Assembly (NCBI GenBank): GCA_037131755.1
Contig: JBAXQJ010000004.1
Location: 1,094-65,093 of the forward strand
Direction: 5' to 3'
Length of the DNA: 64,000 nucleotides
Origin: a bacterium
GTDB lineage: Bacteria; Patescibacteriota; Minisyncoccia; Phycocordibacterales; GWA1-40-21
This document shows positions 1 to 30,028 of the stretch, in pieces (position 1 is the first letter of the stretch; every line of letters begins with the position of its first letter). The notes beneath the pieces are model-generated. The model had not been told where the DNA came from, did not search any database, and saw nothing but the letters and a program-made list of their open reading frames with translations. The translations under genes were made by a program, and so were the position numbers.

Positions 1-521
1 TATTCAAAAATAGTCTTAGAAACTAAATTCCAAAACTTTTGCGAATGATTAAATTCTTTCAGATGACAAAGCTCATGGACAATTATGTAATTAACTAGTT
101 TATCAGGCAACAGAACAATTTTATAATTAAAATTCAGGTTACCTTTTCTTGAACAGCTACCCCAGCGTGTTTTCTGATTCTTAATATTTATTTTGTTAAA
201 TCTAATCTTATAAATCTTATTGAACTTAGCCACTTTCTTCTCGGCTAACTCCTGAGCTTGCTGTTTATACTTTGTATAATCGGCATCAGAATTTTTAGTA
301 ATAAATGTTTTACTAAATGATCCAAAATAATCGAGCTTATCCAATATCCATTGAGATTTTTTTATTATAAACTGTTCAATTGTGTTCACGGCAATATTGG
401 TCGGAGCAGTAACTACAAAATTACCGTCACAATAAATTGCCAGTCTCATTCTTCGAGCTCGGTTGCTTACCTTTATAGTATATTCAACTTTTCTTTTATG
501 TAGCTCGATGTGTTTTTTCAT
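1..521 (-). CDS. DUF45/YgjP-like zinc metallohydrolase (partial; C-terminus runs off window start)
   Basis: Unlisted minus-strand ORF with ATG at 521-519, 3 nt after the hsdR stop. Own translation: MKKHIELHKRKVEYTIKVSNRARRMRLAIY...TRWGSCSRKGNLNFNYKIVLLPDKLVNYIIVHELCHLKEFNHSQKFW. The HELCH...H (HExxH) motif and TRWGSC segment are typical of DUF45 proteins that often sit beside Type I R-M loci. Confidence 0.6.
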   Translation of the reverse strand, partial: MKKHIELHKRKVEYTIKVSNRARRMRLAIYCDGNFVVTAPTNIAVNTIEQFIIKKSQWILDKLDYFGSFSKTFITKNSDADYTKYKQQAQELAEKKVAKFNKIYKIRFNKINIKNQKTRWGSCSRKGNLNFNYKIVLLPDKLVNYIIVHELCHLKEFNHSQKFWNLVSKTIFE

Positions 522-524
522 AAG

Positions 525-3440
525 CTAGAATTTCTTAATGACAATATCAATTAAACGATTAAGATACTTATTAAAATCTGAAACCTTTATTTGATCTTTA
601 TAATCCTTGAGAATTAGTTCTTGAAGTGTCCGCTTGGCTTCCTTTAAAAACTCTTCACGTTTCGATGAATCCTGCCAGCCGTCATCTAAGATGTCGGCTA
701 ATCGTGCCGCCATTTCTTTAATAAATTCTTTAACAATAGTTTCATCGGAGTCGCTAATAAATTCTTCGGACACGACAAATAACCCATACTCACCGAGCGA
801 ATAACCAAGTCCCTTGGCTTCTTCTGCCTTAGTCTTGATATCATTCATTAATTCATAGTAGCGCTTGATTCGTTCTGCTAAATCTATTTGATGTTTTTCA
901 AATTCTTGTCGAATGGCACTTAGTCTTTCACTGAACTTCTTAAAGGCTGGATGTGTATCGATATTAATCGATATCTCTCGCTTAAGCATCTTCTCAAGAT
1001 TAAGTGCCTTTTCGTCTTCGTTCATCTTGTCCAAGCGTTCAAGTGTATATAAATCATTAACCTTTAATTCTCTAAAATTTTTGGTTATGCCTTCATAGTC
1101 AATTTTTTCCTGAATAAGACTTTTAATTTTGCCGCCATATTCTGCCAAAGAAAAAGCATCGACACCGTCATCATCTTGGAACTCTTTTACAAAGGCTAAA
1201 TAAAAACTAGTAACCCACTCAAAAGTACGAATATACTCCATTAAGAATGGATCAGGCGATAGGATTTCGAATAGCATCTTAAGACGTGCGTATTTGTCCT
1301 TAAAAAATTGCTGCTTATTTTGATTATCAATAAAAATCTTGAGACAACGACGCAAATTATCAATTGATGGGTCTTCAATATTTACACCTGTAAATAATTC
1401 CATCACCTCTTCAATTACTTTAACAAATTCCTTTTTAAGACGTTCAATATCGATCATTGCGCTATCAACCACGCTCTCGTCAAAGTTGAGCGCATCATAA
1501 AGATTTTTGGTAACACCATAATAATCGATAATCTTGCCACACCCTTTATTTGGATAAACTCTATTTGTGCGAGCGATTGCCTGCAGTAGATTATGGTCTC
1601 TTAATGGTTTGTCCAAATACATAACCTGCTCAACTGGAGCATCAAATCCAGTCAATAGCATGTCACAAACTAATAAAAATTTAAGTGGGTGGCTTGCATC
1701 TTTAAACTGCTCTATAACCTTCTCTCGTTTTTGCTTATTAGTATTATATTTTTTTAGATCGTCGCTATCGCTATTAGGATCGCCGGGCGAGTAAACAACT
1801 TCTGACCATTCTGCTGGCACTAACTTATCAAGCATCTCCTTGTATTTTGCAGTTGCTTCACGATCGTAACATACAATCTGTGCTTTAAAACCATTCGGCA
1901 AAACATATAACTTGTAATGCTCAACGATATCCTGAATTACCGCTTCCATGCGTTTTTCAAGTTTAACTAAAGCTTCTTTTTTGCCATATTTTTTCATTAG
2001 CAACTCCCTCTGGCTATCATTGAGATCTGCGGTCATTTCCGCAAACTGCTTATCAAGCTTTTCTTCATCAACAAAAAACTTTGACAGCCTTGCTTCGTAG
2101 GTAACTGGTAATGTTGCGCCATCATCAATAGCTTGTTGAATTGAGTAGTAATCTAAATAACGCTCACCCTCTTCACCAAAGTTGCGGTGGGTATTTAATG
2201 TAAGTTTATCAATAGGGGTACCAGTAAAGCCAAAGAAAAAAGCGTTCTTAAACGCATTGCGCATCTTTATCGCAGAAATACCTTCATTATCACGATGAGC
2301 CTCGTCTGAAAGCACAATCACATTGCCTTCGATAGCTTCTACGTCCTGCAATTCATTAAACTTTTGAATAGTGGAAATAAATATACCCCTGTCAGCTCCC
2401 TTAATCTTTTTCTCTAAATCCTTTCGAGATTCAACTCGAATTAAGTTTTGTCCACCCCATGCTTCAAACTCATCAAAAACTTGTTGGTCTAGATCAATGC
2501 GATCAATTAATATAAATACCTTAGGATTTTTTAGCTGTTCATCAAATCGTAATTTCCAAGCAGCAAAAAACATAGTCAGGGTTTTTCCTGATCCTTGCGT
2601 ATGCCAAATTAAACCCTTCATTAATTCGCCATCCTTAACACGGCTAACAATCTTATTGGTAGCATAAAGTTGCTGATATCGAGCAATCTTCTTTGTATAA
2701 CTATCTTTCTTCTTCTCAAATACAATAAAGTTTTTAATAATATCTAAGACCTGAGTTTTGTCTAACAAATAATGTAGAGTTAAATCTAATTCTTCGTCAT
2801 ACTTCTTATTGCCACCGTGCAAATCTTCACGCCAAGTTAAAAAATATTGTTTTGGAGAATATGTTGCACCATAAACAGTTTTCAGTCCGTCCGTAGAGAT
2901 GTTAAAGCAATTAGGTAAAAATAATTTTGGCGCAACCTTTTCATACCGCTTAATCTGATCAATAGCATTTTCAAAATTAACGCTACTTGAGGCGGTGGGG
3001 CTTTTTGCTTCAATATCGCAAATCGGCAAACCATTGATAAAAATCATTACATCTGGTCGAATGTTTTCTGTCACACCCTCAAAGTAAAACTGATTGGTCA
3101 CAATAAATTGATTATTATCAATATTATCAAAATCAATAATCTTATAATCCTTAAACTGTCCAGAAGCAGGGTCTTTTATGTTTATGCCGTTTCTTAAGAC
3201 GAATAAAAATGACTCATTGGTGTCCAATTTCTTTACTTCACGAACTACGCTTTGAGCGATATCGTCGGTCGAATTATTAATTCTCTTAACTGCCTCTAAA
3301 AGATGTGGTGAAATAATATATTCATTTTCAAATATTCTCAGTTTAGAAAATTCATCAGCGCGAATATATTTATAACCGAGATTATCGGCAATAAATTTAA
3401 TTACATGGTTTTCGATCGTATGTTGTTCGTTAAATTTCAT
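525..3440 (-). CDS. hsdR: Type I restriction enzyme R subunit (HsdR)
   Basis: 971 aa; SF2 helicase motifs (HTQGSGKTLTMF Walker A, VLSDEAHRDNEG DEAH box); N-terminal nuclease-like region; adjacent to HsdM/S gene. Confidence 0.85.
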   Translation of the reverse strand: MKFNEQHTIENHVIKFIADNLGYKYIRADEFSKLRIFENEYIISPHLLEAVKRINNSTDDIAQSVVREVKKLDTNESFLFVLRNGINIKDPASGQFKDYKIIDFDNIDNNQFIVTNQFYFEGVTENIRPDVMIFINGLPICDIEAKSPTASSSVNFENAIDQIKRYEKVAPKLFLPNCFNISTDGLKTVYGATYSPKQYFLTWREDLHGGNKKYDEELDLTLHYLLDKTQVLDIIKNFIVFEKKKDSYTKKIARYQQLYATNKIVSRVKDGELMKGLIWHTQGSGKTLTMFFAAWKLRFDEQLKNPKVFILIDRIDLDQQVFDEFEAWGGQNLIRVESRKDLEKKIKGADRGIFISTIQKFNELQDVEAIEGNVIVLSDEAHRDNEGISAIKMRNAFKNAFFFGFTGTPIDKLTLNTHRNFGEEGERYLDYYSIQQAIDDGATLPVTYEARLSKFFVDEEKLDKQFAEMTADLNDSQRELLMKKYGKKEALVKLEKRMEAVIQDIVEHYKLYVLPNGFKAQIVCYDREATAKYKEMLDKLVPAEWSEVVYSPGDPNSDSDDLKKYNTNKQKREKVIEQFKDASHPLKFLLVCDMLLTGFDAPVEQVMYLDKPLRDHNLLQAIARTNRVYPNKGCGKIIDYYGVTKNLYDALNFDESVVDSAMIDIERLKKEFVKVIEEVMELFTGVNIEDPSIDNLRRCLKIFIDNQNKQQFFKDKYARLKMLFEILSPDPFLMEYIRTFEWVTSFYLAFVKEFQDDDGVDAFSLAEYGGKIKSLIQEKIDYEGITKNFRELKVNDLYTLERLDKMNEDEKALNLEKMLKREISINIDTHPAFKKFSERLSAIRQEFEKHQIDLAERIKRYYELMNDIKTKAEEAKGLGYSLGEYGLFVVSEEFISDSDETIVKEFIKEMAARLADILDDGWQDSSKREEFLKEAKRTLQELILKDYKDQIKVSDFNKYLNRLIDIVIKKF

Positions 3441-3460
3441 ATTTTTAGCAGCCTGAAAGA

Positions 3461-5725
3461 TTAGATCTTTTTGTTAAATAAACTATTTATCAATCCTCTT
3501 TTTCTCTGCATATACTTATCTAGCAATTGTTGTCTTAACTCCGCTTCACGCTTTACAGCTTCAAGTATGCTCGCTATTTCTTTTTGTTCATCTTCAGATG
3601 TGGGCAAATACAAGCTTTTTGACAAAAATTTTGTATTTGAAATATTGATAGTATTTTTTGCACCTTTTGATACTATGGTTTGTAGGTAATTATTTGTATT
3701 AATATTAGATTCAAAATACGCATCCAATATTACTCCTATAAAGTAATTTTTCGGCTCAAAAACTCCATACAAAGGAGAAACGATAGCATCCGTAGTAATT
3801 TTGCTTTGTTTAATTATACCGTAAGGGAAATCTCCTGTTGGACTCTTTGTATATATAATATCTCCAGGTCTAACAAGTTTATATTTTGAAGTGTCTTTTG
3901 CTGAATATGATCTGCCCAAATGCTCTATTTGGTTTACGACTCCCTTTTTTACAGATACAGAATGAACCTCTTCTTTTCCTGTGCTGAACAACTTATGTTC
4001 AGTTAAAACATCGCTAAGAAGAGTGTCCTTCCATTTATCCTTAGTAACTTGGCGCTTAGTTAAATCCAGGATACTAGCTTTGTATTTCTTTAGCTCCTCC
4101 TCAATAGAGTTTATTTCATTTTCTAAAGCTTCCAAGTCAACATCGATCTCTTTTTTAGAGGTGTCAACATAGCGCCTAATATCTAAATTAAAATCATTCT
4201 CAATAATTTTATTAAGAGATACTATTTCTGAATAATTTTTTATTGACTCAAATGACTCAAATGTATTAATAATTTTTTTTATATCTGATACACGCAATCT
4301 ATTTTGTTTTTTATCAATCTCAAAACCTTCCTCTGCACTTATTATCAAAATCTTATTCTTTTTTTCGGGAGATTTATTTTTGTTGAGAATAACAATTACA
4401 GCCGGAATTTTTGTTCCATAAAATAACTTTTGTGGCAATGATATAATTCCTTCTATGAGATCATTATTTAGAATAGCCTCCCTAATTTTTCCCTCAGAAC
4501 CGCCACGAAATAATACTCCATGTGGCAAAACAATTCCTGCACGACCATTTTCATTCATAGACTTAATTATATGCAAGATGAAAGCAAAGTCCGCATTTTT
4601 ATCTGGTGGCATTTCATATCCAGCTAGTCTGCCATATTTATTTGTTTTAAATACTTCCCACTCCCAATCTTTAATCGAATAGGGAGGATTTGCAACTACT
4701 ATATCAAAGCTCTGTAGCCCACCATGTTGGTTTAAAAATTGAGGATTAGCCAAGGTGTCGCCTCGACGAATATCAGCACTATCAAGACCATGAAGGAACA
4801 TATTTATACGAGCAATTGCAAAAGTACTTAAATTTACCTCCTGGCCATAGAGATATAAGGTTTTTGCTATTTTTTCACCAGATTTATTTTTTAGATAATC
4901 ATATGCCTCAAGCAAAAACCCACCCGAACCGACTGTTGGGTCGTATATGTGATCTTTCTGGTGTGGCTTTAATATGCCAATAATAACTTTTTCAACTTCT
5001 CTCGGAGTGTAAAATTCACCACCTTTTTTTCCTGCATCTGCTGCAAATTGTTTTATTAGGTATTCATAAGCATCACCAAGCAAATCTGAGCTGATATAGT
5101 TACTTCCAAAATTATATTGCGAAAAATGATTAATAAGTTTCTGCAGAGTTTCGTTTGGAAAGCGATCCTTGTTAGCAAAATCAAGATCGTCAAAAATTTT
5201 GTCGAGTTTAGGACTATTGGCATTGGTTAGCTTTTCAAAAATCTCATTTAGCTTTTGACCGATACCATCAGCTTGTTCTGTGATTACAGTCCAACGACAA
5301 TCTTTAGGAACTTGGAAACGATGATTGTAGTCAGCACGGGCTATATCTTCATTATTATATTCGTCCATTACTTTCTGATATTCTTCATCCCAAACATCGC
5401 TGATACGTTTATAAAACAACAATCCAAAGATATATTTTTTATAATCCGAGCTGTCAATTTTGCCACGCAAGATGTCAGCACTTTTCCAAAGCATTGCCTC
5501 GAGTTGGGGTAGTGTAAGTTGACTACCCATTTTATCAACGATGGCTTCAATGTCTTGTGGGCGATATTTGCGATCACCACGTTTTCCAGCTCTAAGTGGA
5601 ACCAAAATTCCATCCTTTTCCCAATTACGAAGAGTGTCTTGATGAATTGAGAAAATTTCAGCTACCTGACTAATAGAAAGAAGCTCTGGCATGCCTTTTA
5701 ATTTTTCTTGTATGTCTTTGCGCAT
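3461..5725 (-). CDS. hsdM: Type I R-M methyltransferase fused to a single HsdS target-recognition domain, with N-terminal MerR/Xis-like HTH
   Basis: 754 aa. N-terminal LSISQVAEIFSIHQDTLRNWEKDGILVPLR helix-turn-helix; HsdM N-domain (LWKSADILRG...LLFYKRISD); N6-adenine MTase motif VVANPPYS; C-terminal about 230 aa resemble an HsdS TRD plus conserved helix (LVRPGDIIYT...ISNTKFLSKSLYLPTSEDEQKEIASILEAV). Confidence 0.75.
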   Translation of the reverse strand: MRKDIQEKLKGMPELLSISQVAEIFSIHQDTLRNWEKDGILVPLRAGKRGDRKYRPQDIEAIVDKMGSQLTLPQLEAMLWKSADILRGKIDSSDYKKYIFGLLFYKRISDVWDEEYQKVMDEYNNEDIARADYNHRFQVPKDCRWTVITEQADGIGQKLNEIFEKLTNANSPKLDKIFDDLDFANKDRFPNETLQKLINHFSQYNFGSNYISSDLLGDAYEYLIKQFAADAGKKGGEFYTPREVEKVIIGILKPHQKDHIYDPTVGSGGFLLEAYDYLKNKSGEKIAKTLYLYGQEVNLSTFAIARINMFLHGLDSADIRRGDTLANPQFLNQHGGLQSFDIVVANPPYSIKDWEWEVFKTNKYGRLAGYEMPPDKNADFAFILHIIKSMNENGRAGIVLPHGVLFRGGSEGKIREAILNNDLIEGIISLPQKLFYGTKIPAVIVILNKNKSPEKKNKILIISAEEGFEIDKKQNRLRVSDIKKIINTFESFESIKNYSEIVSLNKIIENDFNLDIRRYVDTSKKEIDVDLEALENEINSIEEELKKYKASILDLTKRQVTKDKWKDTLLSDVLTEHKLFSTGKEEVHSVSVKKGVVNQIEHLGRSYSAKDTSKYKLVRPGDIIYTKSPTGDFPYGIIKQSKITTDAIVSPLYGVFEPKNYFIGVILDAYFESNINTNNYLQTIVSKGAKNTINISNTKFLSKSLYLPTSEDEQKEIASILEAVKREAELRQQLLDKYMQRKRGLINSLFNKKI

Positions 5726-5785
5726 ATTTTATGGATTAATAATCTTAATCCTAGTATACATCAAATATTTTGTAAAGTCAATCGT

Positions 5786-5805
5786 TCATAGGTTATCATA
5801 GGTTA
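5786..5805. promoter_or_regulatory. tandem direct repeat tcataggtta x2 in divergent hsdM / recombinase promoter region
   Basis: Perfect 10-bp tandem duplication in the 181-bp intergenic region between divergent genes. Confidence 0.3.
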
Positions 5806-5906
5806 AGATAATTTATCACTATATTTATTATAGTAATATTAGGCATTTTTAAGGGACTTGGGACGCTCTGGACTCTTCTGTAGATATGCGTCATCAATGT
5901 TAGTAT

Positions 5907-7226
5907 ATGAATACAATACAAATGCCCGTAGGGGTGACGAGCAAAATAATCACCCCAGTTAAGGCAAAATACTGCCTTTATGCCCGAAAATCGACCGAAA
6001 GCGAGGAAAGGCAGGTCTTATCAATAGATAGCCAAATTAAGGAGATGCTTGAGCTGGCTGAACGAGAGCAACTGGACATCGTAGAACTCAAAAGAGAGTC
6101 TCACAGCGCTAAAGAGGCTGGACAGCGACCAGTTTTTAATGAAATTATAGCCGAGATAAAGGAGGGTAAATTTAATGCCATTTTGACATGGGCTCCTGAC
6201 CGTATATCAAGAAATGCAGGCGACCTAGGCAAAATTGTGGATTTAATGGATTCTGGTGCCCTGCTTGAGATAAGGACATATGGTCAGAAATTTAGCAATA
6301 ACCCGAACGAGAAGTTTCTGCTCATGATTCTCGGATCACAAGCCAAACTTGAAAACGACAACAGAGGCATTAATGTCAGACGAGGACTAAGGACTAGGGC
6401 TGAGATGGGTTTGTGGGTAGGTCTAGCACCGCTAGGCTATCTGAACCAAAGACGGATGGACAAGAAGTGCCAAGTGGTAGTTGATCCGCTACGTGCGCCA
6501 GCCATCAAGCAGATGTTTGAGAAAATGGCTTACGAAAAGTTTAGTGGGCGAAAATTATTCAACTGGCTCAAACATGATCTAAACTTTTACACCCGAGGCA
6601 ACAAGCCGCTAACGTTGGCTGGTGTTTATAGAATAATAAATAATCCATTCTACTACGGCGTATTTGAGCGACCAGTCGGTAGTGGCAACTGGTATCAAGG
6701 AAAACATAAGCCTCTAATTAGTAAGGACTTATACGACAAAGCACAAGCTCAATTAAAACGAGATCAAATTGTTAGAGAAAATAAAGAGTTTGCATTCACT
6801 AAACTATTCACTTGCGGTTATTGTGGCTCGGGCATATCGGCAGAGGAAAAATACAAACCGCTCAAGGACGGAACACATGCAAGATACATCTACTACTCCT
6901 GTTCGAGGGCACGAGATCGCAATTGCAAGAATAAATACATAAGAGAAGAAGAATTGATTACTGAACTGCTAAAAATATTAGACAAGGTAAATATTAACGA
7001 GCTAGGAATGCGGCAAAAACTGGAAGATGAAATTGCCAGATTCAATATCTTCCAACGATCAGTGCTTGGCGCAACTGATAAAATCAAAACCAACAAAGAA
7101 ATGGATATTAGAAACTATGCTAAATATCTACTCAAAGAGGGAGCGACATCGGATAAGCGAGAGTTGCTCGGAAATTTAAGGTCGAAGATAATGTACAAGG
7201 ATAAAGTATTAACTTTGATTGAATAG
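5907..7226 (+). CDS. large serine recombinase (resolvase/integrase family)
   Basis: 439 aa; N-terminal resolvase catalytic domain (CLYARKSTESEERQVLSIDSQ, catalytic Ser); recombinase domain; Cys-rich zinc ribbon (CGYCGSG...YYSCSRARDRNC). Confidence 0.8.
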   Translation: MNTIQMPVGVTSKIITPVKAKYCLYARKSTESEERQVLSIDSQIKEMLELAEREQLDIVELKRESHSAKEAGQRPVFNEIIAEIKEGKFNAILTWAPDRISRNAGDLGKIVDLMDSGALLEIRTYGQKFSNNPNEKFLLMILGSQAKLENDNRGINVRRGLRTRAEMGLWVGLAPLGYLNQRRMDKKCQVVVDPLRAPAIKQMFEKMAYEKFSGRKLFNWLKHDLNFYTRGNKPLTLAGVYRIINNPFYYGVFERPVGSGNWYQGKHKPLISKDLYDKAQAQLKRDQIVRENKEFAFTKLFTCGYCGSGISAEEKYKPLKDGTHARYIYYSCSRARDRNCKNKYIREEELITELLKILDKVNINELGMRQKLEDEIARFNIFQRSVLGATDKIKTNKEMDIRNYAKYLLKEGATSDKRELLGNLRSKIMYKDKVLTLIE

Positions 7227-7238
7227 CATTTAGCACCA

Positions 7239-8591
7239 TCAATAAGCTTTGAATAGACGGCGAATTAATTTTTTAAAATACCGTTTTAAAGAATTATCTC
7301 TATTTAGATATTTTGAAATAAAATCATTGGCGCTTTTTATTTCCACGCTTTTTAGCCAACTAATTATTTCTTTATTAATTTTGAGTGTTTCTATAGCGTC
7401 TTGATTATTCAACTCCTTGCCTCTATGTATTACTTCATTTCGTATTTTATCGTAATTTGTGCACCATCCATTCCATAGAATCGCACTTTCTTTTGATAAT
7501 TTTTTTTCAGATACTTCGAATACAAGATCTTTTATTCTGTCTTTTGTATTCCATTTTCTATTCAATATTGCTTGAACATCTTCGGGGCTCAACCCCTTTT
7601 TTATATAGGCAGAAAAAAGAAAATTTTCTAAAAATATTTCGAATGCTTGAAAAATTTTAACGACTGCTAAAGTATACGCCTTTTTACTAATAGACGACGC
7701 CCCGTCTAGCAATAATAACTCATACAACAATGGCATCTCGTCATTTTTTAGCATCAACTCAATCGTCTTGAGCATGTTTAACGGTCTATTCATTATCGCA
7801 TCACCTATGCCATACCCCAATGAACTTATATATAGATGATTGTTGTGATCAACAAAATATACGTTATTTATGTTCAAAGAACCTAATCTCTCAACATAAT
7901 CTTCTTGCGTAACATATCTATACACATCCAAAAGCTTATTAATAACCTCGAGTGAAATTTCTGAGATTGTATTAATCACAGAACTAATATTCTTATTTAT
8001 TTCTTCAATCTTAAAGTCAGTATCTATTTGAATAATGACTTTTGTGTATCTGAACGTCCCATTAGCATCTCTTTCTTTTTCAATGTTTTTACCAGTCCAA
8101 TGTTGTTGCCAACCAAGACTTTCATTTATGGGAAATTGGGGACCAGTCAATACCGTATCTTTGAAATAAGTAGTTTTATTTTCAGCTAAATAATCAGCAT
8201 AATCTGAGTCAACTGTTGAAGTAGTCCAGATTTTTTGAAGTCGGACGTTAGCGACATGTTCTTTCCCCTTGTAGTTAATATCAAAATCGTAGTTATTTGG
8301 CACATGTAGACAATATGGCAGAGTCGCTTCAATAATGGTATTACAATCAAATTCTTCTTTCAAAAATGATGGATCAGTCAATTGATAAACTGGCGATGTA
8401 GTTGTGATTATAAACGCCTTTTCTAGGTTTACTTTATTTAAATCATTAGTTAGCAATTGTTTCTGCTGATCTGACGATAATTTTTCAAATTCTTTTTTGT
8501 TAACCAAAACATAAAAATTAACCACCTCCTGTTTATTTTTAAGGTGGGACTTGGCTTGTATTTCTAATAATTGCCAATCTTTTTCAGTCAT
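7239..8591 (-). CDS. hypothetical protein with C-terminal HEPN-like motif (candidate Abi/defence effector)
   Basis: 450-aa ORF with no recognisable enzymatic domain apart from RNEVIHRG (Rx4H) near the C-terminus in a helical region. Sits in the island between the recombinase and tRNA-Ser. Confidence 0.5.
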   Translation of the reverse strand: MTEKDWQLLEIQAKSHLKNKQEVVNFYVLVNKKEFEKLSSDQQKQLLTNDLNKVNLEKAFIITTTSPVYQLTDPSFLKEEFDCNTIIEATLPYCLHVPNNYDFDINYKGKEHVANVRLQKIWTTSTVDSDYADYLAENKTTYFKDTVLTGPQFPINESLGWQQHWTGKNIEKERDANGTFRYTKVIIQIDTDFKIEEINKNISSVINTISEISLEVINKLLDVYRYVTQEDYVERLGSLNINNVYFVDHNNHLYISSLGYGIGDAIMNRPLNMLKTIELMLKNDEMPLLYELLLLDGASSISKKAYTLAVVKIFQAFEIFLENFLFSAYIKKGLSPEDVQAILNRKWNTKDRIKDLVFEVSEKKLSKESAILWNGWCTNYDKIRNEVIHRGKELNNQDAIETLKINKEIISWLKSVEIKSANDFISKYLNRDNSLKRYFKKLIRRLFKAY

Positions 8592-8655
8592 ATGTATATT
8601 ATACCAAAAATGCCCCTAATAGGGGCATTCGGGTCTATCCGATACTAAATTGTAT

Positions 8656-8747
8656 TGGCGGAGACGGCGAGATTCGAACTCGCGGAGCCCTATAAGAGGC
8701 TCACCTCTTTAGCAAAGAGGCACATTAGACCACTCTGACACGTCTCC
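8656..8747 (-). tRNA. tRNA-Ser (anticodon GCU), CCA encoded
   Basis: Manual fold of GGAGACGTGTCAGAGTGGTCTAATGTGCCTCTTTGCTAAAGAGGTGAGCCTCTTATAGGGCTCCGCGAGTTCGAATCTCGCCGTCTCCGCCA: 7-bp acceptor, anticodon loop TTGCTAA, long variable arm, TTCGAAT T-loop. Confidence 0.8.
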
Positions 8748-8794
8748 AGAAACTGTTTATTCAATTGTTATATCTTCAAAAGAATCAACGTCTG

Positions 8795-11981: not shown

Positions 11982-14222
11982 ATGTTACTCCAAGATCCGA
12001 TAGATAAAAATTTCCGTTTGCAGGGCGATCAAAAGGCGGCCTTAAAGAAAATCGGCATCAAGACGATCGAGGATTTGCTCTACCATTTCCCGACTCGCTA
12101 CGGCGATACGGCGGAAATAAAAAATATCAGCACTTTAGTAGCTGGAGAAACGGCAGTGATTTATGGACGGATTACCAATCTCAAAACTGGCAAGGCTTTT
12201 ATCAAGAAGACGTCGATTTCCGACGCCTACATCGAGGACGAAAGCGGGAAAATAAAAGTGATCTGGTTCCATCAGCCCTACATTGCCAAGATAATTCACG
12301 AAGGCGCTTTTGTCCGAGTGGAAGGCAAGGTCTCCGAAAAGAAATCCTCTATACCAAGGCTAAACCTTGGTATAGACCAAGGTTTAGCCTTGGTCGGTGG
12401 GGAGAAAAAGATTTTGTCTTTTATCAACCCCAAAATCGAAACGGTGGCCAAAATACCGATCGGCGTCGGCGAGTCACTCTTTGGGGAAGATGGCGAAGAA
12501 CATTCGCTTTATCCGGTTTACCCCGAGAGCAAAGGCATCACTTCCAATTGGCTGTATCATGGCATACAGAAAATCCTCAAGGATGGAATTCTCGACCAAA
12601 TCACCGATCCGATACCCGATTTTATTCTCAAAACTTACAATCTCCCCTCGCTCGCCACGGCCCTGGTCTGGATCCATGCGCCCAAAAAACAAACCGACGC
12701 TCTGGCGGCCCGCAAGCGCTTTGCTTTTGAAGAAGTTTTTTACATCCAGCTCCAGAAAAAGAAAGATAAAAAAACTTGGGAAATCGATCCGGCGTTTAAA
12801 ATAGAGAAGGATCAAAAAGATATCGATTCCTTTACCAAACGCTTCCCATTTGAAGCCACTGGCGCACAAAAGAAAGCGATCGACCAAATTCTCTCGGATA
12901 TGAGGCGCGGTTTTGCGATGGGTCGGTTACTTGAAGGCGATGTCGGCTCTGGCAAGACGGCTGTCGCTGCGGCCGCTGTTTTTGCCACGACCACTTCCCG
13001 TCCATTTGGCCAAAATTTTGGCGCCCTGCAAACCGCCTATATGTGCCCGACCGAAATCCTGGCCAAACAGCAGTTCGAATCTTTCATAAAATATTTTACT
13101 TATCTCGGTATCAATATCGGACTCATTACTTCAAGCGGTTGCCGAAAATTCCCATCCAAAGTCAATCCAAATGGCTGGACCGATATCTCGCGCACCCAGC
13201 TTTTGAAATGGGTAGCCAATGGCGAGATCCCGATTCTGGTCGGAACGCACTCCTTGATCCAGAAAACGATTAAATTCAAGCACTTGGCTTTCGTGATCAT
13301 CGATGAACAGCATCGGTTCGGGACTAATCAAAGGCAAAAATTATTCAAGAAGAACGAGCCGGATGGCAAACCCAACCCTCACCTGCTTTCGATGACGGCG
13401 ACTCCGATTCCCCGCACTCTGGCGCTCACCGTCTATGGCGATTTGGATCTGTCCGTCCTCGACGAAATGCCGGCCGGCCGCAAACCGATCATCACGGAAA
13501 TTGTCTTACCCAAAGAGGAAACGCGCCAAGAGACTTATGAAAAAATCCGCGCCGAATTAAGATCCGGTCGACAAGTCTATATCATCTGTCCGCGCATCGA
13601 CGAACCGGATCCCAACAAAGAAATGGCCGTGCTGGCAAAATCAGTGACGGAAGAAGCCAAGCGTCTCAAAGAAAAGATCTTTCCGGAATACGAGATCGGC
13701 GTTCTCCACGGTAAGATGAAAGACGATGAAAAAGAAGAGGTGATGGCCGAATTTTCGGCTGGTAAAATTCACATCCTTTGTGCCACCTCGGTCGTGGAAG
13801 TCGGCGTGAATGTGCCGAACGCGACTGTCATCGTGATCGAGGGTGCCGAACGTTTCGGCCTGGCCCAGCTCCATCAGCTTCGCGGCCGGGTTATTCGTGG
13901 CAACCATCAGGCTTACTGCTACATTTTTGCCGATACCAAAACCGACAAGACGATACAGCGCTTGCGGGCATTTAAGAATTCCGCAAACGGTTTCGAGTTG
14001 GCGGAGTTCGATCTCAAACTCCGCGGTCCGGGCGAGCTCGGCGGCAACAAACAATGGGGCATTTCGGATATCGGCATGGAGGCGCTCAAAAATATCAAAA
14101 TGGTCGAAGCCGCCCGCGCGGAAGCTGGATATCTTTTGGAAAATGATTTTGAGTTGCAAAAATACCCCCTGCTAAAAGAAAAATTAAAATGCAGAAAGAC
14201 TGAAGAAATTCATTTTGAATAG
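11982..14222 (+). CDS. recG: ATP-dependent DNA helicase RecG
   Basis: 746 aa; wedge/OB N-domain; helicase motifs (GDVGSGKT, IIDEQHRFG DEQH box); C-terminal helicase lobe. Confidence 0.85.
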   Translation: MLLQDPIDKNFRLQGDQKAALKKIGIKTIEDLLYHFPTRYGDTAEIKNISTLVAGETAVIYGRITNLKTGKAFIKKTSISDAYIEDESGKIKVIWFHQPYIAKIIHEGAFVRVEGKVSEKKSSIPRLNLGIDQGLALVGGEKKILSFINPKIETVAKIPIGVGESLFGEDGEEHSLYPVYPESKGITSNWLYHGIQKILKDGILDQITDPIPDFILKTYNLPSLATALVWIHAPKKQTDALAARKRFAFEEVFYIQLQKKKDKKTWEIDPAFKIEKDQKDIDSFTKRFPFEATGAQKKAIDQILSDMRRGFAMGRLLEGDVGSGKTAVAAAAVFATTTSRPFGQNFGALQTAYMCPTEILAKQQFESFIKYFTYLGINIGLITSSGCRKFPSKVNPNGWTDISRTQLLKWVANGEIPILVGTHSLIQKTIKFKHLAFVIIDEQHRFGTNQRQKLFKKNEPDGKPNPHLLSMTATPIPRTLALTVYGDLDLSVLDEMPAGRKPIITEIVLPKEETRQETYEKIRAELRSGRQVYIICPRIDEPDPNKEMAVLAKSVTEEAKRLKEKIFPEYEIGVLHGKMKDDEKEEVMAEFSAGKIHILCATSVVEVGVNVPNATVIVIEGAERFGLAQLHQLRGRVIRGNHQAYCYIFADTKTDKTIQRLRAFKNSANGFELAEFDLKLRGPGELGGNKQWGISDIGMEALKNIKMVEAARAEAGYLLENDFELQKYPLLKEKLKCRKTEEIHFE
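12350..12395. repeat. palindromic repeat element (two inverted units) lying in-frame inside recG
   Basis: tataccaaggctaaaccttggtata + gaccaaggtttagccttggtc; the 27-mer ctataccaaggctaaaccttggtatag is identical to the copy at 53347-53373; translated as IPRLNLGIDQGLALVG within RecG. Confidence 0.7.
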
Positions 14223-14288
14223 AATAATATCGGAAAGATAAGCCTGATTGCGATAAGCCTTTTTTTACGCTAATATCCATAGGTAAAT

Positions 14289-14361
14289 GCGCGTGTAGCT
14301 CAGTTGGTAGAGCGGTCGTCTTATACACGACTGGTCCCAGGTTCGAATCCTGGCACGCGCA
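14289..14361 (+). tRNA. tRNA-Ile (anticodon UAU)
   Basis: Manual cloverleaf of GCGCGTGTAGCTCAGTTGGTAGAGCGGTCGTCTTATACACGACTGGTCCCAGGTTCGAATCCTGGCACGCGCA: perfect 7-bp acceptor, 5-bp anticodon stem GTCGT/ACGAC, loop CTTATAC (U33, anticodon TAT, A37), discriminator A, no encoded CCA. Confidence 0.75.
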
Positions 14362-14476
14362 CAAACTAAAGCCGGGTTTTCATCAGATGAAAACCCGGCT
14401 GAGTATTTTATATGATTGGTCGCCAAGGTCTCACCTTTCCCGTCGCCGACTCCTCCCCAAGGAGAGACCTTGTCGC

Positions 14477-16462
14477 CTAGTTTTGATGCTCAATATCCTG
14501 TTTCTTCTTCAAAGGGATGCCGTGCGCCACGATTATTTTTTCATATTCATCGCGTTCGATCGTCTCTACCTCGATCAACCTCTTAGCAATCACATCGAGA
14601 AGTGGACGATGGGTTGTCAAAATTTCCTCGGCCCGGCCCAAATTGTTTTCCATAATCGCCGAGACTTCGGCATCGATTTGCGCGCCGACTTTTTCCGAGT
14701 AGTCATGATCGCCCACGCCTTTGCCATACAAGGCCCGGCCACCCTCACCTTCCAAGGCTACGGCCCCCATTTTGTCGGACATGCCGTACTTCGTCACCAT
14801 ATCGCGAGCCAAGGCGGTCGACACCTGCAAATCATTTGACGGCCCGGTGGTGATATCTTTGAAAATCATTTTTTCGGCCACATACCCGCCCAAAGAAACG
14901 GCAATGTCATCCAAAAATTCTTTCTTGCTCTGCAACTTTCTGTCTTGTAATGGCAAATGCAAGGTGTAACCGGCGGCCCGACCGCGGGAGATAATCGAAA
15001 TCTTGTGCACCGGATCGGCATAAAGCAAAACCGATGAAACCAAGGCGTGACCGGCTTCGTGATAAGCGGTAATTTCTTTTTCTTTCTTGGACAACAAATG
15101 GCTTTTTCTCTCCGGACCCATCATCACTTTTTCGATCGAACGGATCAAATCGAACTGCGCCACTTTCTGTCTGTTTTCTCGAGCAGCCAGGATTGCCGCT
15201 TCATTCATCAGTGAGAACAAATCCGCACCGGAAAAACCAGGCGTTCTCTCCGCGATCACCACCAAATTTACATCTTCGGCAAACGGCTTTTCCTTGGCAT
15301 GCACTTTCAAAATCGCCTCGCGATCATTTCGATCCGGCAGATCGATCACCACTCGGCGATCAAACCGGCCCGGTCGGAGCAAAGCGGGATCCAAAACATC
15401 CGGACGATTAGTCGCCGCCATCACAATCACTTTTTCATTGGGTTCAAAGCCGTCCATCTCCACCAGGATCTGATTCAAGGTTTGCTCGCGTTCGTCATTG
15501 CCACCGCCCATTCCCGCTCCGCGCACTCGGCCGACGGCATCGATTTCATCCACAAAGATAATCGCTGGCGCCATCTGCTTGGCCATCTTGAACAAGTCGC
15601 GAACACGGCTGGCACCCACACCGACGAACATTTCCACGAATTCAGAACCGGAAATAGAAAAGAAAGCTACGCCCGCCTCCCCAGCGACGGCTCGAGCGAG
15701 CAAGGTTTTTCCCGTACCCGGCGCGCCCATCAAAAGTATACCTTTGGGAATTCGCGCTCCGATTTCCAAAAATTTCTTGGGATTTTTCAAAAAATCAACG
15801 ACTTCGGATAATTCTTCTTTCGCTTCTTTGGCTCCGGCCACATCGGCAAAAGTTATTTTTTGTTTCTTGTCCGACGGCAAGATCATTCGCGCCTTGGATT
15901 GACCGAAACTGAAAGCCTGCATACCAGCCCCTTTCACCTGTCGAGTGAGCAGCCAAAATATGAAAGCGATAACCAGAAGCGGCAGCACAAACGGCGCCAA
16001 GGCCAAAAACCAATAACTGAATCCGCCCTCGGCCACGACATCGATTTTCACGTTCGCCATCTTTTCCGGAGCGACTTTGTAGTTGGCCAAAGTTTGAGAT
16101 AAAGCTGTCGCATCTTCTTTTTGCGAACTTTTTATCACCGGCGTACCGCTCGCTACCGGATTGTAAGTTATCGACAAATCATTGCCACTCACTTCAATTT
16201 TTTGCACTAGGCCGGCGGAGATATCGGTCGCCAGTTGGGAAATCGGAATTTGCTCAACCTTTTTTGACCCGCTGCCAAGCATCGAATACAAGGTGATGAT
16301 GACTAATAAAATCAAGATGACATTTATGATATTGGAAACTAGTCCGCCGCCAAAATTTGGCATTTTGGGTATTCCCCGCCCGCCTTTCTTGGGTGAAGAC
16401 ATGTTTGGACCCTTTGCCGGGCCTTTGGTTTTAAGTATTTGCATATGAGGATAATAACACAA
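14477..16462 (-). CDS. ftsH: ATP-dependent zinc metalloprotease FtsH
   Basis: 661 aa; N-terminal TM helices; AAA+ module ([14 protein letters not shown]); zinc-binding HEAGHALV. Confidence 0.9.
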
Positions 16463-17055: not shown

Positions 17056-17473
17056 GGGGATGCATGTTTTGACAAAAAACCAAACCCTTTCGTGCAAAGC
17101 AGAGCTCCAACAACTCTTTAAAAGGTTGGAAATTGTAATTGCAAACACATTAGTTGCAAAGGCAAAGTCTCTTGTTTCTCCATATTTTGGAGTACAGGAT
17201 CTTGCTTTCGCCTACGTTGCTTAATCTTTTTAGATTAGCCTAGGCGGCGTCTCTCTCGCCTATTTCGCGGAGACGGGACGAGGCGTAATATACGCGAATA
17301 TATTTTGCAGTAGTCTCGACTGCAAACCGAGAACAAGAGAATCGGCTTATGATCATTTTTCTGATTTTGAAATCATAAGCTAAAATCCGTCACAAGACGG
17401 GACTAAATCAGATACGCTTTGTAGACTCGTCTGTGTTAATTTTTTGGACGCGGTTTCAATACCGCCATCTCCA
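17056..17473 (+). ncRNA. ssrA: putative tmRNA (SsrA)
   Basis: Begins GGGGATGCATGTTTTGAC (tmRNA-like 5' end) downstream of smpB. The 3' end CATCTCC-A can pair with 5' GGGGATG (one G-U) to form a tRNA-like acceptor, preceded by a T-arm-like GCGGTTTCAATACCGC. An internal ORF ends ...DLAFAYVA-TAA at 17222-17224. Not covariance-model verified. Confidence 0.5.
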
Positions 17474-17712
17474 CACTTTCAAAAATCCGCTCATTCTGAT
17501 GGGCGATTTTTGTTGTGTGGATATGAGCAAGCAAACTGCTTTGCTTGCGGGCGGTATTGAAAAGATTGGCGCTGTTTTGTCGGCAAAACCGCCAATCACG
17601 CGCCGTGGGCGGCAATTACCGCCATGTTTCTCAAACCCATTGACGAAACAACTGGAATGTGATAATTTTTTGACTGGAGTTTAAACCAAAAAAGTTAGAG
17701 AGGAATTGATAA

Positions 17713-22622: not shown

Positions 22623-23390
22623 TCAATAAACCCTTAAAATAGATATGATTCCGCTGGCACCGGTAGATACTCCGATGGTATCCACATTAGAGATAACGAT
22701 AGGCGTATTGGCCGGCACGGTCAATAAATTAGTTCCGGCTGACGTAGCCGAACTGACAATCCTGTCGTTACCGCAGAAACCATATAAACTCGTCGGCACG
22801 ACGGTCACTCCATTAATCGTCAGGTAATCATCGGCGCTGATATCTGTCTTAGCTTTCAAAATGACATCAAAAGGATACTGCTCGGTAGTGGTAGACCTGG
22901 AGGACTGAACGCACACCCCAGTACCCCTTGACGGAAACATCGCGCTTAAATTCAAAGTAGCAATCTCCTCCGGTAGACGAACACAAGTCCCCACCACTCC
23001 GAACAGGCTGGTGCCGGTGGCAATGTTAGCGGCAATTAGGTTTGGTTCAGCCGTCGATAACGACGAAGTCGAATAAAAGCCAGCATCGATAACCCCTGAG
23101 TTGTTTAGGCTTCGCCAAGAGACGGTGTTCCAGATGTCAGTCAGAGTATTGAGAGAGGGAGTGGGAATAGTCGCTGGCGCAAAAGCATGATTAGCCAAAG
23201 TAGCTCCGGTATTTGAGGAGATTTTGTTGAGGATATCATCCAAAGTGTACATCGACGCGGCGGGAGAGGAGGCAGGAACAAGAGAGCCGGCAATAACGGG
23301 GATTGTCAAAACAAAAGTAACGATCAGGGGTATGAGGATTTTCTGTCTGATATTTCCTTTTATCATAAGGCTATTATAGCAATTTAACAA
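22623..23390 (-). CDS. secreted protein, paralog family member A (shared N-terminal module)
   Basis: Signal peptide; the motifs SLVPASSP...YTLDDILNKISS and NIATGTSLFGVVGT are shared with the next two genes. Confidence 0.6.
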   Translation of the reverse strand: MLNCYNSLMIKGNIRQKILIPLIVTFVLTIPVIAGSLVPASSPAASMYTLDDILNKISSNTGATLANHAFAPATIPTPSLNTLTDIWNTVSWRSLNNSGVIDAGFYSTSSLSTAEPNLIAANIATGTSLFGVVGTCVRLPEEIATLNLSAMFPSRGTGVCVQSSRSTTTEQYPFDVILKAKTDISADDYLTINGVTVVPTSLYGFCGNDRIVSSATSAGTNLLTVPANTPIVISNVDTIGVSTGASGIISILRVY

Positions 23391-23417: not shown

Positions 23418-24527
23418 TTATTGCACCAGGCTTCGGCCAGAGCCAGCATTGTAAAGATTGGCAATCTCCGTCTCAGTCAAAGTGCGATTCCAAATGGCCC
23501 CTTCATCAACATCACCATAATAATATCTCAAAAACGGTGCGCCGCTTTCCCCCGACCGATAATAGCCGCCCGGGAAATGACCAAGATGGGTATAGGCGCT
23601 CATTGTTCCGTCAACAGTCAAACTATTGGGAACTTTTACGCCGTCGACATAGACATTCAAAGTGGTGCCGTTAGCGGTAGCGGCAAAATGATGCCAATTC
23701 AGATCGGTAAGATGATAACCGGTACCTTTCCAATAGCCATTTAATACCATCAACTGGTTTGAAGAGACATCGCCATAGCTGTCACCGCCACCGATCATTA
23801 GAGCAAAAGTATCGGCACTCCAATCATGACCCCAGCCGATCATCTGACCGTTCCTCATGTTCAGCTGACTGGCCTTGGCCCAGACAGAAACACTGAAAAT
23901 TTCCTGCGTTGGCATATTATTCATATTCAGACTCACTTCACGCGCCCCATTGAAAGCAAAAGCATTGGCAAATTTGCCGGCACTGTAAGCAGCACTGCCA
24001 ATCGTCCAGGACGCATTATTGGAATTACCGGAATTATCGTCGGTATTGTCATTGCCAGGCCAATAGCCGATCATTCCGGCTCTTAAACCGCTCACGATCT
24101 GACCTTCCGTTGGCTGACACGCTGGCGGCACATAAGTGCCCACCACTCCGAACAGACTGGTGCCGGTAGCAATGTTGGCTGGCTGGAGATCGGTATCGAT
24201 ATCGGATAAGGTGGCAGTCGGGTAAATCCCCTTTTCTAAGATTGAGCTATCTGGATTAATGGTTTTATGGGAAGGAATGTTGTTCCAAAGTTCAGCTAGA
24301 GTCAAAAAAGTTCCAGCCGGAATCAGCTCGGGATTGTAAGCATGCGAAGAAACGGAAAAAGTACTGGAGGAAATCCGATTATTGATATCCGAAAGCGTGT
24401 AGGCAAAAGTGCCAGGAGAAATTGTTGGCGTAAGGGAGCCCGCAAAAGCGGAAAGCGTAAACAAAATGGCGCCAGACAGCAGATTGATCAGAATTTTGTT
24501 CGGCATTGTATTTAAGATTACTGGCAT
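23418..24527 (-). CDS. secreted protein, paralog B, with C-terminal LamG/concanavalin-like domain
   Basis: Signal peptide; shared N-module (YTLSDINNRISS...NIATGTSLFGVVGT); C-terminal jelly-roll-like segment (LNVYVDGVKV...LTETEIANLYN). Confidence 0.6.
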   Translation of the reverse strand: MPVILNTMPNKILINLLSGAILFTLSAFAGSLTPTISPGTFAYTLSDINNRISSSTFSVSSHAYNPELIPAGTFLTLAELWNNIPSHKTINPDSSILEKGIYPTATLSDIDTDLQPANIATGTSLFGVVGTYVPPACQPTEGQIVSGLRAGMIGYWPGNDNTDDNSGNSNNASWTIGSAAYSAGKFANAFAFNGAREVSLNMNNMPTQEIFSVSVWAKASQLNMRNGQMIGWGHDWSADTFALMIGGGDSYGDVSSNQLMVLNGYWKGTGYHLTDLNWHHFAATANGTTLNVYVDGVKVPNSLTVDGTMSAYTHLGHFPGGYYRSGESGAPFLRYYYGDVDEGAIWNRTLTETEIANLYNAGSGRSLVQ

Positions 24528-29611: not shown

Positions 29612-29633
29612 AAATTTTCTAACAATAATGTCA

Positions 29634-30006: not shown

Positions 30007-30028
30007 TCGGGGAGAAATAAAGAGAGTA

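What the first reader, a model, noticed from the sequence alone, without database searches (positions are those of the whole stretch)
14289..14361. tRNA-Ile with a genomically encoded UAU anticodon
The gene folds perfectly and carries anticodon TAT. Most bacteria decode AUA with a CAU-anticodon tRNA modified to lysidine by TilS. A genuine UAU tRNA-Ile is known from only a few reduced genomes (Mycoplasma mobile and a few others I recall) and implies loss of tilS and an adapted IleRS.
Basis: partly seen in the sequence, partly recalled or inferred. Interest (0 to 1): 0.5.

Follow-up and report, generated by a model that had tools for sequence, protein, structure and literature searches.

The report
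Clade-wide tRNA-Ile(UAU) in Paceibacteria
The window holds a real isoleucine tRNA with a DNA-encoded UAU anticodon, and the same gene sits beside ftsH in about 70 related ultra-small (CPR, class Paceibacteria) bacteria, so a large uncultured lineage appears to read the AUA codon without the usual lysidine enzyme TilS.

Summary
Window 14289-14361 (+) is a canonical 73-nt tRNA with anticodon TAT (ARAGORN; Rfam 75.2 bits, E 1e-14).

The organism is a CPR bacterium of class Paceibacteria. The gene is not a one-off. 70 of 80 related species-level genomes carry a tRNA(TAT) just downstream of ftsH. Among 57 distinct sequences, 99.7% of stem positions pair, 16 of 21 pairs show compensatory changes, and C32-U33-U34-A35-U36-A37 is invariant.

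AUA is in use: 9.5% of Ile codons in 12 core genes here, about 30% across relatives. AUA aligns with I/V/L exactly as AUU and AUC do, so the tRNA is an Ile decoder.

TilS and IleRS are absent from the window and from 1.24 Mb of related loci. The whole genome could not be scanned. Published annotation tables of three other Paceibacteria list no TilS (K04075), and one of them, which also lists tRNA genes, has only two CAU tRNAs. All three have a type-2 (eukaryote-like, PF19302) IleRS. That matches the Bifidobacterium/Neorickettsia pattern, not the Mycoplasma mobile one. Saccharimonadia, another CPR class, keeps an essential tilS upstream of ftsH.

Verdict: a new, very large member group of a known kind. 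tilS loss in this genome is inferred, not shown.

The parts
14289..14361 (+). tRNA-Ile(UAU) gene, 73 nt from position 1 to discriminator A73; CCA not encoded
   Evidence: ARAGORN. Rfam RF00005 75.2 bits, E 1.1e-14. Covariation across 57 distinct orthologues.
14320..14326 (+). Anticodon loop C32-U33-U34-A35-U36-A37-C38; anticodon at 14322-14324
   Evidence: Sequence. The loop is CTTATAC in 70 of 73 orthologues and CTTATAT in 3. Positions 32-37 are invariant in alignment A1.
14370..14400 (.). Palindromic 14-bp hairpin with T-rich tracts on both strands, 8 nt after the tRNA. Likely a bidirectional intrinsic terminator for the convergent tRNA and ftsH.
   Evidence: Terminator scan reports it on both strands. 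Consensus match only; function is inferred.
14248..14276 (+). Weak sigma-70-like promoter candidate: TTGCGA, 17 nt, TAATAT, ending 12 nt before the tRNA 5' end
   Evidence: Read by eye. It matches 8 of 12 consensus positions, below the scan's threshold, and was not reported. Inferred only.
14477..16462 (-). ftsH, the conserved neighbour that anchors the tRNA's position across the clade
   Evidence: Pfam FtsH_ext, AAA, AAA_lid_3 and Peptidase_M41. 70 of 80 related loci have tRNA-Ile(tat) downstream of ftsH, median distance 350 bp.
11982..14222 (+). recG, the upstream neighbour; it ends 66 nt before the tRNA
   Evidence: Pfam RecG_wedge, DEAD, Helicase_C and RecG_dom3_C.

Best explanation
This is a functional, independently transcribed tRNA-Ile whose DNA-encoded UAU anticodon reads the AUA codon. 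It is the Paceibacteria (CPR) version of the lysidine-free AUA decoding system.

Shown:
- The gene is a canonical tRNA.
- It is conserved with compensatory stem changes and an invariant anticodon loop across about 70 species.
- AUA codons are used and behave as isoleucine.

Inferred from relatives and the literature:
- The genome has no TilS and no tRNA-Ile2(CAU).
- The tRNA is charged by a type-2 (eukaryote/archaeal-like) IleRS that tolerates U34, as proposed for Bifidobacterium and Neorickettsia.
- A37 becomes t6A (tsaD is present in a relative).
- U34 is probably left without an xm5 modification (no MnmE/MnmG named in a relative). Unmodified U34 binds AUA strongly and AUG only weakly, as measured for Bacillus subtilis and Mycoplasma mobile UAU tRNAs, with tRNA-Met competing for AUG.
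- The gene probably arose from a tilS/ftsH-linked tRNA-Ile2(CAU) by a C34-to-U transition, followed by loss of tilS.
For: - Real tRNA.
- Organism: FtsH relatives are all Paceibacterota/Parcubacteria MAGs.
- Conservation: tRNA-Ile(tat) in 70 of 80 related loci, median 350 bp downstream of ftsH.
- Covariation in 57 distinct sequences: 99.7% of cells paired, 16 of 21 pairs with double changes, score 0.736 against 0.17 shuffled and at most 0.14 when partners are slid; U8-A14, 32-37 and A73 invariant.
- Codon use: ATA is 52 of 547 Ile codons in 12 core genes, nearly absent from tuf and fusA. Across FtsH, RecG and SmpB of about 80 genomes, ATA accounts for 2345 of 7676 Ile codons. Columns holding ATA show I .52, V .17, L .15, M .03, the same as ATT and ATC.
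- No TilS in the window or in 1.24 Mb of related loci by tblastn and PP-loop motif; the ORFs upstream of ftsH are not TilS or Hpt.
- Published tables: MAG PMX_810_sub (all 866 features) has no K04075, and its one 'lysidine' label is an amidotransferase. It has two tRNA-Met(cat), IleRS with PF19302, tsaD present, and no mnmE/mnmG words. PMX.50 has no K04075 and a PF19302 IleRS. Minisyncoccus archaeiphilus has none in the first 603 of 1305 CDS and a PF19302 IleRS.
- PF19302 marks type-2 IleRS (MupA), while E. coli IleRS has PF06827 instead.
- Literature: tilS-less Bifidobacterium and Neorickettsia have eukaryote-type IleRS (PMC3575796). Unmodified U34 reads AUA well and AUG weakly (PMC3919564).
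- Origin: CAU tRNAs with the same loop apart from C34 (CTCATAC) lie directly upstream of tilS, and of ftsH, in at least 12 metagenome loci.
Against: - The rest of this genome was not available, so absence of tilS, of tRNA-Ile2(CAU), and the type of its IleRS are not shown for it.
- The three published Paceibacteria tables come from other families. Two are incomplete MAGs and one is stored only to 46%. PMX_810_sub lacks the ftsH region and lists no tRNA-Ile(tat), so co-occurrence in one genome is not documented.
- Some bacteria (Lactobacillus casei, Cyanothece, Ferrimonas) carry both tRNA-Ile(TAT) and tilS (PMC3575796), so presence of the tRNA does not by itself prove tilS loss.
- The tRNA lies downstream of ftsH, not upstream where tRNA(CAU)-tilS lies in other phyla, so in-situ descent needs a rearrangement.
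- The modification state of U34 and the charging specificity are unmeasured.
- A38 and C29-G41, identity elements for E. coli IleRS, are not kept: position 38 is C, and the 29-41 pair varies.
Confidence: 0.72

Rival explanations
1. Redundant decoder. The genome also has TilS and tRNA-Ile2(CAU), and the UAU tRNA only supplements AUA reading, as proposed for Lactobacillus casei, Cyanothece and Ferrimonas.
For: Such co-occurrence exists in other bacteria (PMC3575796). Another CPR class, Saccharimonadia, keeps an essential tilS next to ftsH. Only 64 kb of this genome was examined.
Against: No TilS in the window or in 1.24 Mb around ftsH in 80 relatives, including the slot upstream of ftsH where tilS usually sits. 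No K04075 in the published Paceibacteria tables, and only two CAU tRNAs in PMX_810_sub. A redundant gene would not be expected to keep an invariant anticodon loop and full compensatory covariation in 70 species.
Confidence: 0.15
2. The tRNA works only after a wobble modification. U34 is converted to pseudouridine (as in eukaryotic tRNA-Ile, anticodon psi-A-psi) or to an undescribed nucleoside, and this modification, not the bare U, gives IleRS recognition and AUG avoidance. This is a rival for the mechanism step only.
For: Eukaryote-type IleRS naturally charges a psi-A-psi tRNA-Ile (PMC3575796). Taniguchi et al. leave open that UAU may be modified in Mycoplasma suis. On E. coli ribosomes, unmodified UAU reads AUG as well as AUA.
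Against: The two bacterial UAU tRNAs analysed so far, from M. mobile and the B. subtilis suppressor, carry unmodified U34. No MnmE or MnmG is named in the PMX_810_sub table. No candidate enzyme was found in the window.
Confidence: 0.3
3. The tRNA has another identity: AUA is reassigned, or the tRNA is charged with Met, Lys or Arg.
For: The body resembles many other tRNA species (generic D arm and T arm). A38, an E. coli IleRS identity element, is replaced by C38.
Against: ATA codons align with I/V/L in the same proportions as ATT and ATC in 2345 instances. AGA and AAA behave as Arg and Lys in the same test. A35, U36, A37, A73 and U12-A23 are kept in every orthologue; C4-G69 is kept here and in 48 of 57.
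Confidence: 0.02
4. A pseudogene, a chance tRNA-like sequence, or a tRNA brought in by the nearby mobile island or a phage.
For: A low-GC island with a serine recombinase lies about 5.7 kb away.
Against: Rfam E 1e-14. The synteny recG-tRNA-ftsH-smpB-tmRNA is conserved, local GC is 49%, and the gene is present in 70 relatives with compensatory changes.
Confidence: 0.01

Closest known systems
tRNA-Ile(UAU) with eukaryote-type IleRS and no tilS in Bifidobacterium and Neorickettsia (Taniguchi et al. 2013, PMC3575796)
   Same: Genomically encoded TAT anticodon. [quoted passage not shown]
   Different: Here the trait covers a class-level uncultured radiation, at least 70 species, with the gene fixed beside ftsH. 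tilS absence and IleRS type were not shown for this genome itself.
Mycoplasma mobile tRNA-Ile2(UAU) system (unmodified U34, IleRS1 with Arg865 in place of Trp905, ribosome that rejects AUG)
   Same: UAU anticodon decoding AUA. t6A37 is expected. The problem of avoiding AUG is the same.
   Different: [quoted passage not shown] Paceibacteria relatives have type-2 IleRS without that domain. No ribosome data exist for CPR.
Canonical TilS / tRNA-Ile2(CAU to lysidine-AU) system
   Same: Same codon and the same anticodon loop apart from position 34. CAU tRNAs with loop CUCAUAC sit directly upstream of tilS and ftsH in Omnitrophota and other metagenome loci. Both systems are linked to ftsH.
   Different: Here the wobble base is encoded as T and no TilS was found. 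The tRNA is downstream, not upstream, of ftsH.
Archaeal tRNA-Ile3(UAU) of Nanoarchaeum equitans and Korarchaeum cryptofilum, which lack tRNA-Ile2(CAU) (PMC8450103)
   Same: An ultra-small symbiont lineage replaces the modified-cytidine system with a UAU tRNA.
   Different: A different domain. There the lost enzyme would be TiaS (agmatidine), not TilS.
Bacillus subtilis tilS-deletion suppressor tRNA (tRNA1-Ile with G34U)
   Same: Shows that an unmodified UAU anticodon supports growth, binding AUA strongly and AUG weakly (PMC3919564).
   Different: That is a laboratory mutant of tRNA1-Ile charged by a type-1 IleRS. The gene here is natural and ancient.

Membership tests
tRNA (Rfam RF00005) | Cloverleaf with conserved U8, A14, G18-G19, G53-T54-T55-C56, A58 and C61, scoring above the family gathering score | tested here: met
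   75.2 bits against 29, model positions 1-71 of 71, E 1.1e-14. These positions are invariant in 57 orthologues.
tRNA (Rfam RF00005) | Stems maintained by compensatory change among orthologues | tested here: met
   99.7% of cells paired. 16 of 21 pairs have double changes. Covariation score 0.736 against at most 0.14 for slid controls.
Lysidine-independent AUA decoder, tRNA-Ile(UAU) ('tRNA-Ile3') | Genomically encoded TAT anticodon in a 7-nt loop with U33 and A37 | tested here: met
   CTTATAC at 14320-14326. Conserved in 73 of 73 orthologues at positions 32-37.
Lysidine-independent AUA decoder, tRNA-Ile(UAU) ('tRNA-Ile3') | AUA codons are used and mean isoleucine | tested here: met
   52 ATA codons in 12 core genes. 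ATA columns show I .52, V .17, L .15, the same as ATT and ATC.
Lysidine-independent AUA decoder, tRNA-Ile(UAU) ('tRNA-Ile3') | No tilS in the genome | tested here: inconclusive
   None in the window or in 1.24 Mb of related loci. No K04075 in published tables of PMX_810_sub, PMX.50, or 46% of M. archaeiphilus. The whole genome of this organism was not available.
Lysidine-independent AUA decoder, tRNA-Ile(UAU) ('tRNA-Ile3') | No tRNA-Ile2(CAU): only initiator and elongator Met CAU tRNAs | tested here: inconclusive
   No CAU tRNA in the window and one in the 80 loci (L061). PMX_810_sub lists exactly two tRNA-Met(cat). No complete tRNA set was available for this genome.
Lysidine-independent AUA decoder, tRNA-Ile(UAU) ('tRNA-Ile3') | The tRNA is expressed and charged with Ile by the organism's IleRS | not testable with these tools
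   Needs tRNA sequencing, aminoacylation assays or LC-MS.
Bifidobacterium/Neorickettsia subtype (type-2, eukaryote-like IleRS) | [quoted passage not shown] | tested here: inconclusive
   Met in three related Paceibacteria by published Pfam annotation: PF19302 present on the IleRS, PF06827 not listed for it. The marker was validated on MupA against E. coli IleRS. No IleRS gene lies in the window or the loci.
Mycoplasma mobile subtype (type-1 IleRS with Arg/Lys at the Trp905 position) | Bacterial-type IleRS with a Zn-binding domain carrying a substituted wobble-contact residue | tested here: inconclusive
   Related Paceibacteria IleRS carry no PF06827 Zn-finger domain, which argues against this subtype. 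This genome's own IleRS was not seen.

The most novel reading that the evidence does not exclude
The whole class Paceibacteria (Minisyncoccia), a sizeable share of bacterial diversity, has abandoned the 'near-universal, essential' TilS/lysidine system. It decodes AUA with a DNA-encoded UAU tRNA charged by a type-2 IleRS. The gene descends from the tilS/ftsH-linked tRNA-Ile2(CAU) by one C-to-U change. AUG misreading is kept down by an as yet unknown feature of the tRNA or its modification, or of the CPR ribosome. This would also explain the hundreds of unassigned tDNA-Ile(TAT) sequences reported from metagenomes in 2013.
Probability: 0.5. Interest if true: 0.6.

Novelty: new member of a known kind. 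Interest (0 to 1): 0.45.

Why it matters
[quoted passage not shown] Published exceptions number fewer than about 20 genomes.

If a class-level CPR lineage lacks it, the exception becomes a major evolutionary solution. It ties loss of a wobble-modifying enzyme to possession of a type-2 IleRS in a third independent setting. A cultivable member, Minisyncoccus archaeiphilus, could then be used to test how a bare or differently modified UAU anticodon avoids AUG.

There is also a practical point. Pipelines that expect tRNA-Ile2(CAU) and TilS as core markers will score these genomes as incomplete.

Tried and rejected
1. IleRS in the window and 86 loci. Searches by HIGH/KMSKS motifs, tblastn with E. 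coli IleRS and tblastn with MupA found only a small class-I synthetase fragment in L025, which is not IleRS.

2. TilS in the same DNA. The single SGGxDS ORF (L023) is oligopeptidase F. ORFs upstream of ftsH are alanine racemase, a histidine kinase, M3 peptidase, a P-type ATPase, radical SAM proteins or unknowns.

3. Reaching a CPR TilS through the protein database. Aquifex TilS returned only Aquificota. The TilS of metagenome locus L186 turned out to be Omnitrophota. The FtsH search listed only Paceibacteria at 74% identity or more.

5. Literature. No paper in the searchable library combines lysidine or TilS with Patescibacteria or CPR. The IleRS + Patescibacteria hits were irrelevant. Two supplementary sets had no KO tables. 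PMC4615378 is not held.

6. C38 as a special adaptation was rejected. CAU tRNAs with the loop CUCAUAC are common in metagenomes, including tilS-linked ones.

7. The sigma-70 promoter scan did not report a promoter upstream of the tRNA. The TTGCGA-17-TAATAT candidate is by eye only.

Full report
**Observation.** ARAGORN finds three RNA genes in the window: tRNA-Ser(GCT) at 8656-8747 (-), tRNA-Ile(TAT) at 14289-14362 (+), and a tmRNA at 17056-17474. Rfam's tRNA model matches 14289-14361 over its whole length at 75.2 bits (gathering score 29, E 1.1e-14), with no non-canonical pair.

Read from the sequence, the gene is a 73-nt class-I tRNA:
- acceptor stem GCGCGTG/CACGCGC
- U8, A9
- D arm GCTC-AGTTGGTA-GAGC
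- G26
- anticodon arm GTCGT-CTTATAC-ACGAC, with the anticodon at 14322-14324
- variable loop TGGTC
- T arm CCAGG-TTCGAAT-CCTGG
- discriminator A73
- CAA rather than CCA after A73

The same gene occurs in an independent ENA assembly of the same species.

**Context and organism.** The tRNA lies between recG (11982-14222, +) and a convergent ftsH (14477-16462, -). These are followed by smpB and the tmRNA gene. A 14-bp palindromic hairpin flanked by T-runs (14370-14400) sits between the tRNA and ftsH, and looks like a shared bidirectional terminator. A weak promoter-like TTGCGA-17-TAATAT ends 12 nt before the tRNA. That is by eye only; the scan did not report it.

The nearest FtsH proteins in 185,579 species genomes are at most 76% identical. 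All come from CPR MAGs labelled Paceibacterota, Parcubacteria, Taylor-, Kaiser-, Adler- or Nomurabacteria, or Minisyncoccia. The protein database gives the same picture and holds an identical FtsH on a 68-kb contig. No IleRS or TilS gene lies in the window.

**The gene is a clade-wide trait.**
- ARAGORN on the 80 related loci finds a tRNA-Ile(tat) downstream of ftsH in 70 of them.
- The median distance is 350 bp. 33 lie within 300 bp and 65 within 3 kb. 46 are co-oriented with ftsH and 24 are opposite.
- Six of the ten loci without it have less than 1.1 kb of DNA after ftsH.
- The 73 genes give 57 distinct trimmed sequences.
- Aligned and scored against the cloverleaf, 99.7% of 1197 stem cells are standard pairs. 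16 of 21 pairs show changes on both sides. The covariation score is 0.736, against 0.17 for shuffles and at most 0.14 when partners are slid.
- The acceptor stem even switches between G1-C72 (31 sequences) and C1-G72 (23).
- C32-U33-U34-A35-U36-A37 and A73 never change, and position 38 is C in more than 90%.

This is the signature of an essential tRNA whose anticodon is under strict selection.

**Identity.**
- AUA is used in this genome: 52 ATA against 218 ATT and 277 ATC in 12 core genes. It is almost absent from tuf and fusA, as expected for a codon read by a minor tRNA.
- In aligned FtsH, RecG and SmpB orthologues from about 80 genomes there are 2345 ATA codons, about 30% of Ile codons.
- The residues other genomes have in those columns are I .52, V .17, L .15, M .03. 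That is indistinguishable from the profiles of ATT and ATC. AAA, AGA, TTA and GTA give Lys, Arg, Leu and Val.
- AUA therefore means isoleucine.
- Of the E. coli IleRS identity set (recalled from Nureki et al. 1994, not re-read), A35, U36, A37, A73 and U12-A23 are kept in every orthologue, and C4-G69 in this gene and 48 of 57. A38 is C here, and the 29-41 pair varies across the clade.

**Is tilS gone, and what charges the tRNA?** This could only be answered indirectly.
- No TilS-like sequence occurs in the window or in 1.24 Mb around ftsH in 80 relatives.
- The slot upstream of ftsH, where tilS(-hpt) sits in many bacteria, holds a divergent smpB or unrelated genes.
- Published annotation tables helped. 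The full table (866 features) of the Paceibacteria MAG PMX_810_sub has no K04075. Its single 'lysidine synthase' label belongs to an N-acetyl sugar amidotransferase. It lists tRNA-Ile(gat) and exactly two tRNA-Met(cat). That bin also lacks ftsH, so the region where the UAU gene would lie is missing.
- The whole PMX.50 table, and the first 603 of 1305 CDS of the complete Minisyncoccus archaeiphilus genome, also lack TilS.
- All three organisms have an IleRS with Pfam PF19302, and PF06827 is not listed for it. I verified that PF19302 marks the type-2 enzyme (MupA) and PF06827 the bacterial type (E. coli).
- Taniguchi et al. noted that the tilS-less Bifidobacterium and Neorickettsia have a eukaryote-type IleRS, which should accept a UAU-type anticodon because eukaryotic IleRS charges tRNA-Ile(psi-A-psi). 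Paceibacteria fit that pattern, not the Mycoplasma mobile one (type-1 IleRS with Arg865).
- The loss is not CPR-wide. The saccharibacterium Southlakia epibionticum has an essential TilS directly upstream of FtsH.

**Mechanism of AUA versus AUG.** Nothing could be measured here.
- Unmodified U34 in a UAU anticodon binds AUA strongly and AUG weakly on B. subtilis ribosomes (PMC3919564).
- M. mobile tRNA-Ile(UAU) has unmodified U34 and is AUA-specific only on its own ribosome.
- The PMX_810_sub table names tsaD but no MnmE or MnmG. This fits t6A37 with a U34 lacking xm5 groups.
- A different modification, such as pseudouridine or something new, is not excluded.
- C38 is not special. A metagenome scan for the same scaffold with CAT found at least 120 loci with the loop CTCATAC.

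**Origin.**
- In 15 of those loci a TilS gene is present. In at least 12 the CAU tRNA lies immediately upstream of it. In five, ftsH follows: L096, L153, L186, L148 and L118.
- L186 is from Omnitrophota.
- A tRNA-Ile2(CAU)-tilS-ftsH cluster therefore recurs in other phyla, with an anticodon loop that differs from the Paceibacteria one only at position 34.
- This fits the published model of a C-to-T transition in a tRNA-Ile(CAT) gene followed by tilS loss.
- The Paceibacteria gene is on the other side of ftsH, so descent in place is a hypothesis, not a result.

**Comparison with what is known, and novelty.**
- Bacterial tRNA-Ile(UAU) is a known kind: 9 tilS-less species, 19 species, 17 genomes.
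- 371 unassigned tDNA-Ile(TAT) sequences had already been noticed in metagenomes in 2013.
- I found no paper in the searchable library that links TilS or lysidine with CPR/Patescibacteria. Subscription literature and tRNA databases were not searchable.
- I therefore rate this a new, and very large, member group of a known kind, of moderate interest.
- The part still missing is a whole-genome demonstration that tilS and tRNA-Ile2(CAU) are absent from genomes that carry this gene.

Noticed in passing
window 28640-31300 (-): A complete diversity-generating retroelement. Reverse transcriptase ORF at 28640-29611; template repeat at 30029-30150; variable repeat at 30652-30773, at the 3' end of a 222-aa target ORF (30632-31300, no Pfam hit). 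All 13 mismatches in the 122-nt repeat fall on adenines of the template.
   Followed up: partly
window 1-8750: A low-GC (34-36% against 43-49%) island carrying type I restriction-modification hsdR (525-3440) and hsdM (3461-5725), a large serine recombinase (5907-7226) and an unknown 450-aa ORF. It ends at tRNA-Ser(GCT) 8656-8747, so it is probably an element integrated at that tRNA.
   Followed up: no
L013 14396-14485, L016 14871-14960, L025 17243-17332, L034 18295-18382, L065 15469-15554, L069 14175-14262, L077 16262-16349: Seven related Paceibacteria carry a well-formed class-II tRNA-Ser with anticodon ACT (A34; loop TTACTAA), close to tRNA-Ser(GCT). Stem changes among the copies are compensatory. 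A-starting anticodons other than Arg(ACG) are very rare in bacteria. AGA still aligns with Arg. The window does not have it.
   Followed up: partly
L186 2007-3268+, L153 3701-4968+, L096 3828-6248+, L148 936-2979+, L118 (minus strand): In metagenome contigs from other phyla (L186 is Omnitrophota), a CAU tRNA with loop CTCATAC lies directly upstream of tilS, followed by ftsH. Several loci also have another PP-loop protein just before the tRNA, and L186 additionally has mnmA. The substrate tRNA and its modifying enzyme appear to form a conserved cluster.
   Followed up: partly
published tables, not the window: PMX_810_sub_00382, MNSC_03180, PMX.50_00250: In cultured or enriched Paceibacteria the type-2 ileS is adjacent to, or in PMX_810_sub called as one 3504-bp gene with, a histidine-phosphatase (GpmB-like) gene.
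   Followed up: no
window 17056-17476 (+): A tmRNA with the tag AKAKSLVSPYFGVQDLAFAYVA. Relatives share the SPYF...FA(Y/L)A pattern. The smpB-tmRNA pair is conserved next to ftsH across the clade.
   Followed up: no
window 22981-23030 and 24130-24179: A 50-nt repeat at 90% identity inside two neighbouring ORFs (22623-23390 and the Laminin_G_3 protein at 23418-24527), probably paralogous surface proteins. A VirD4/TraG-like coupling protein lies nearby at 25762-28596.
   Followed up: no
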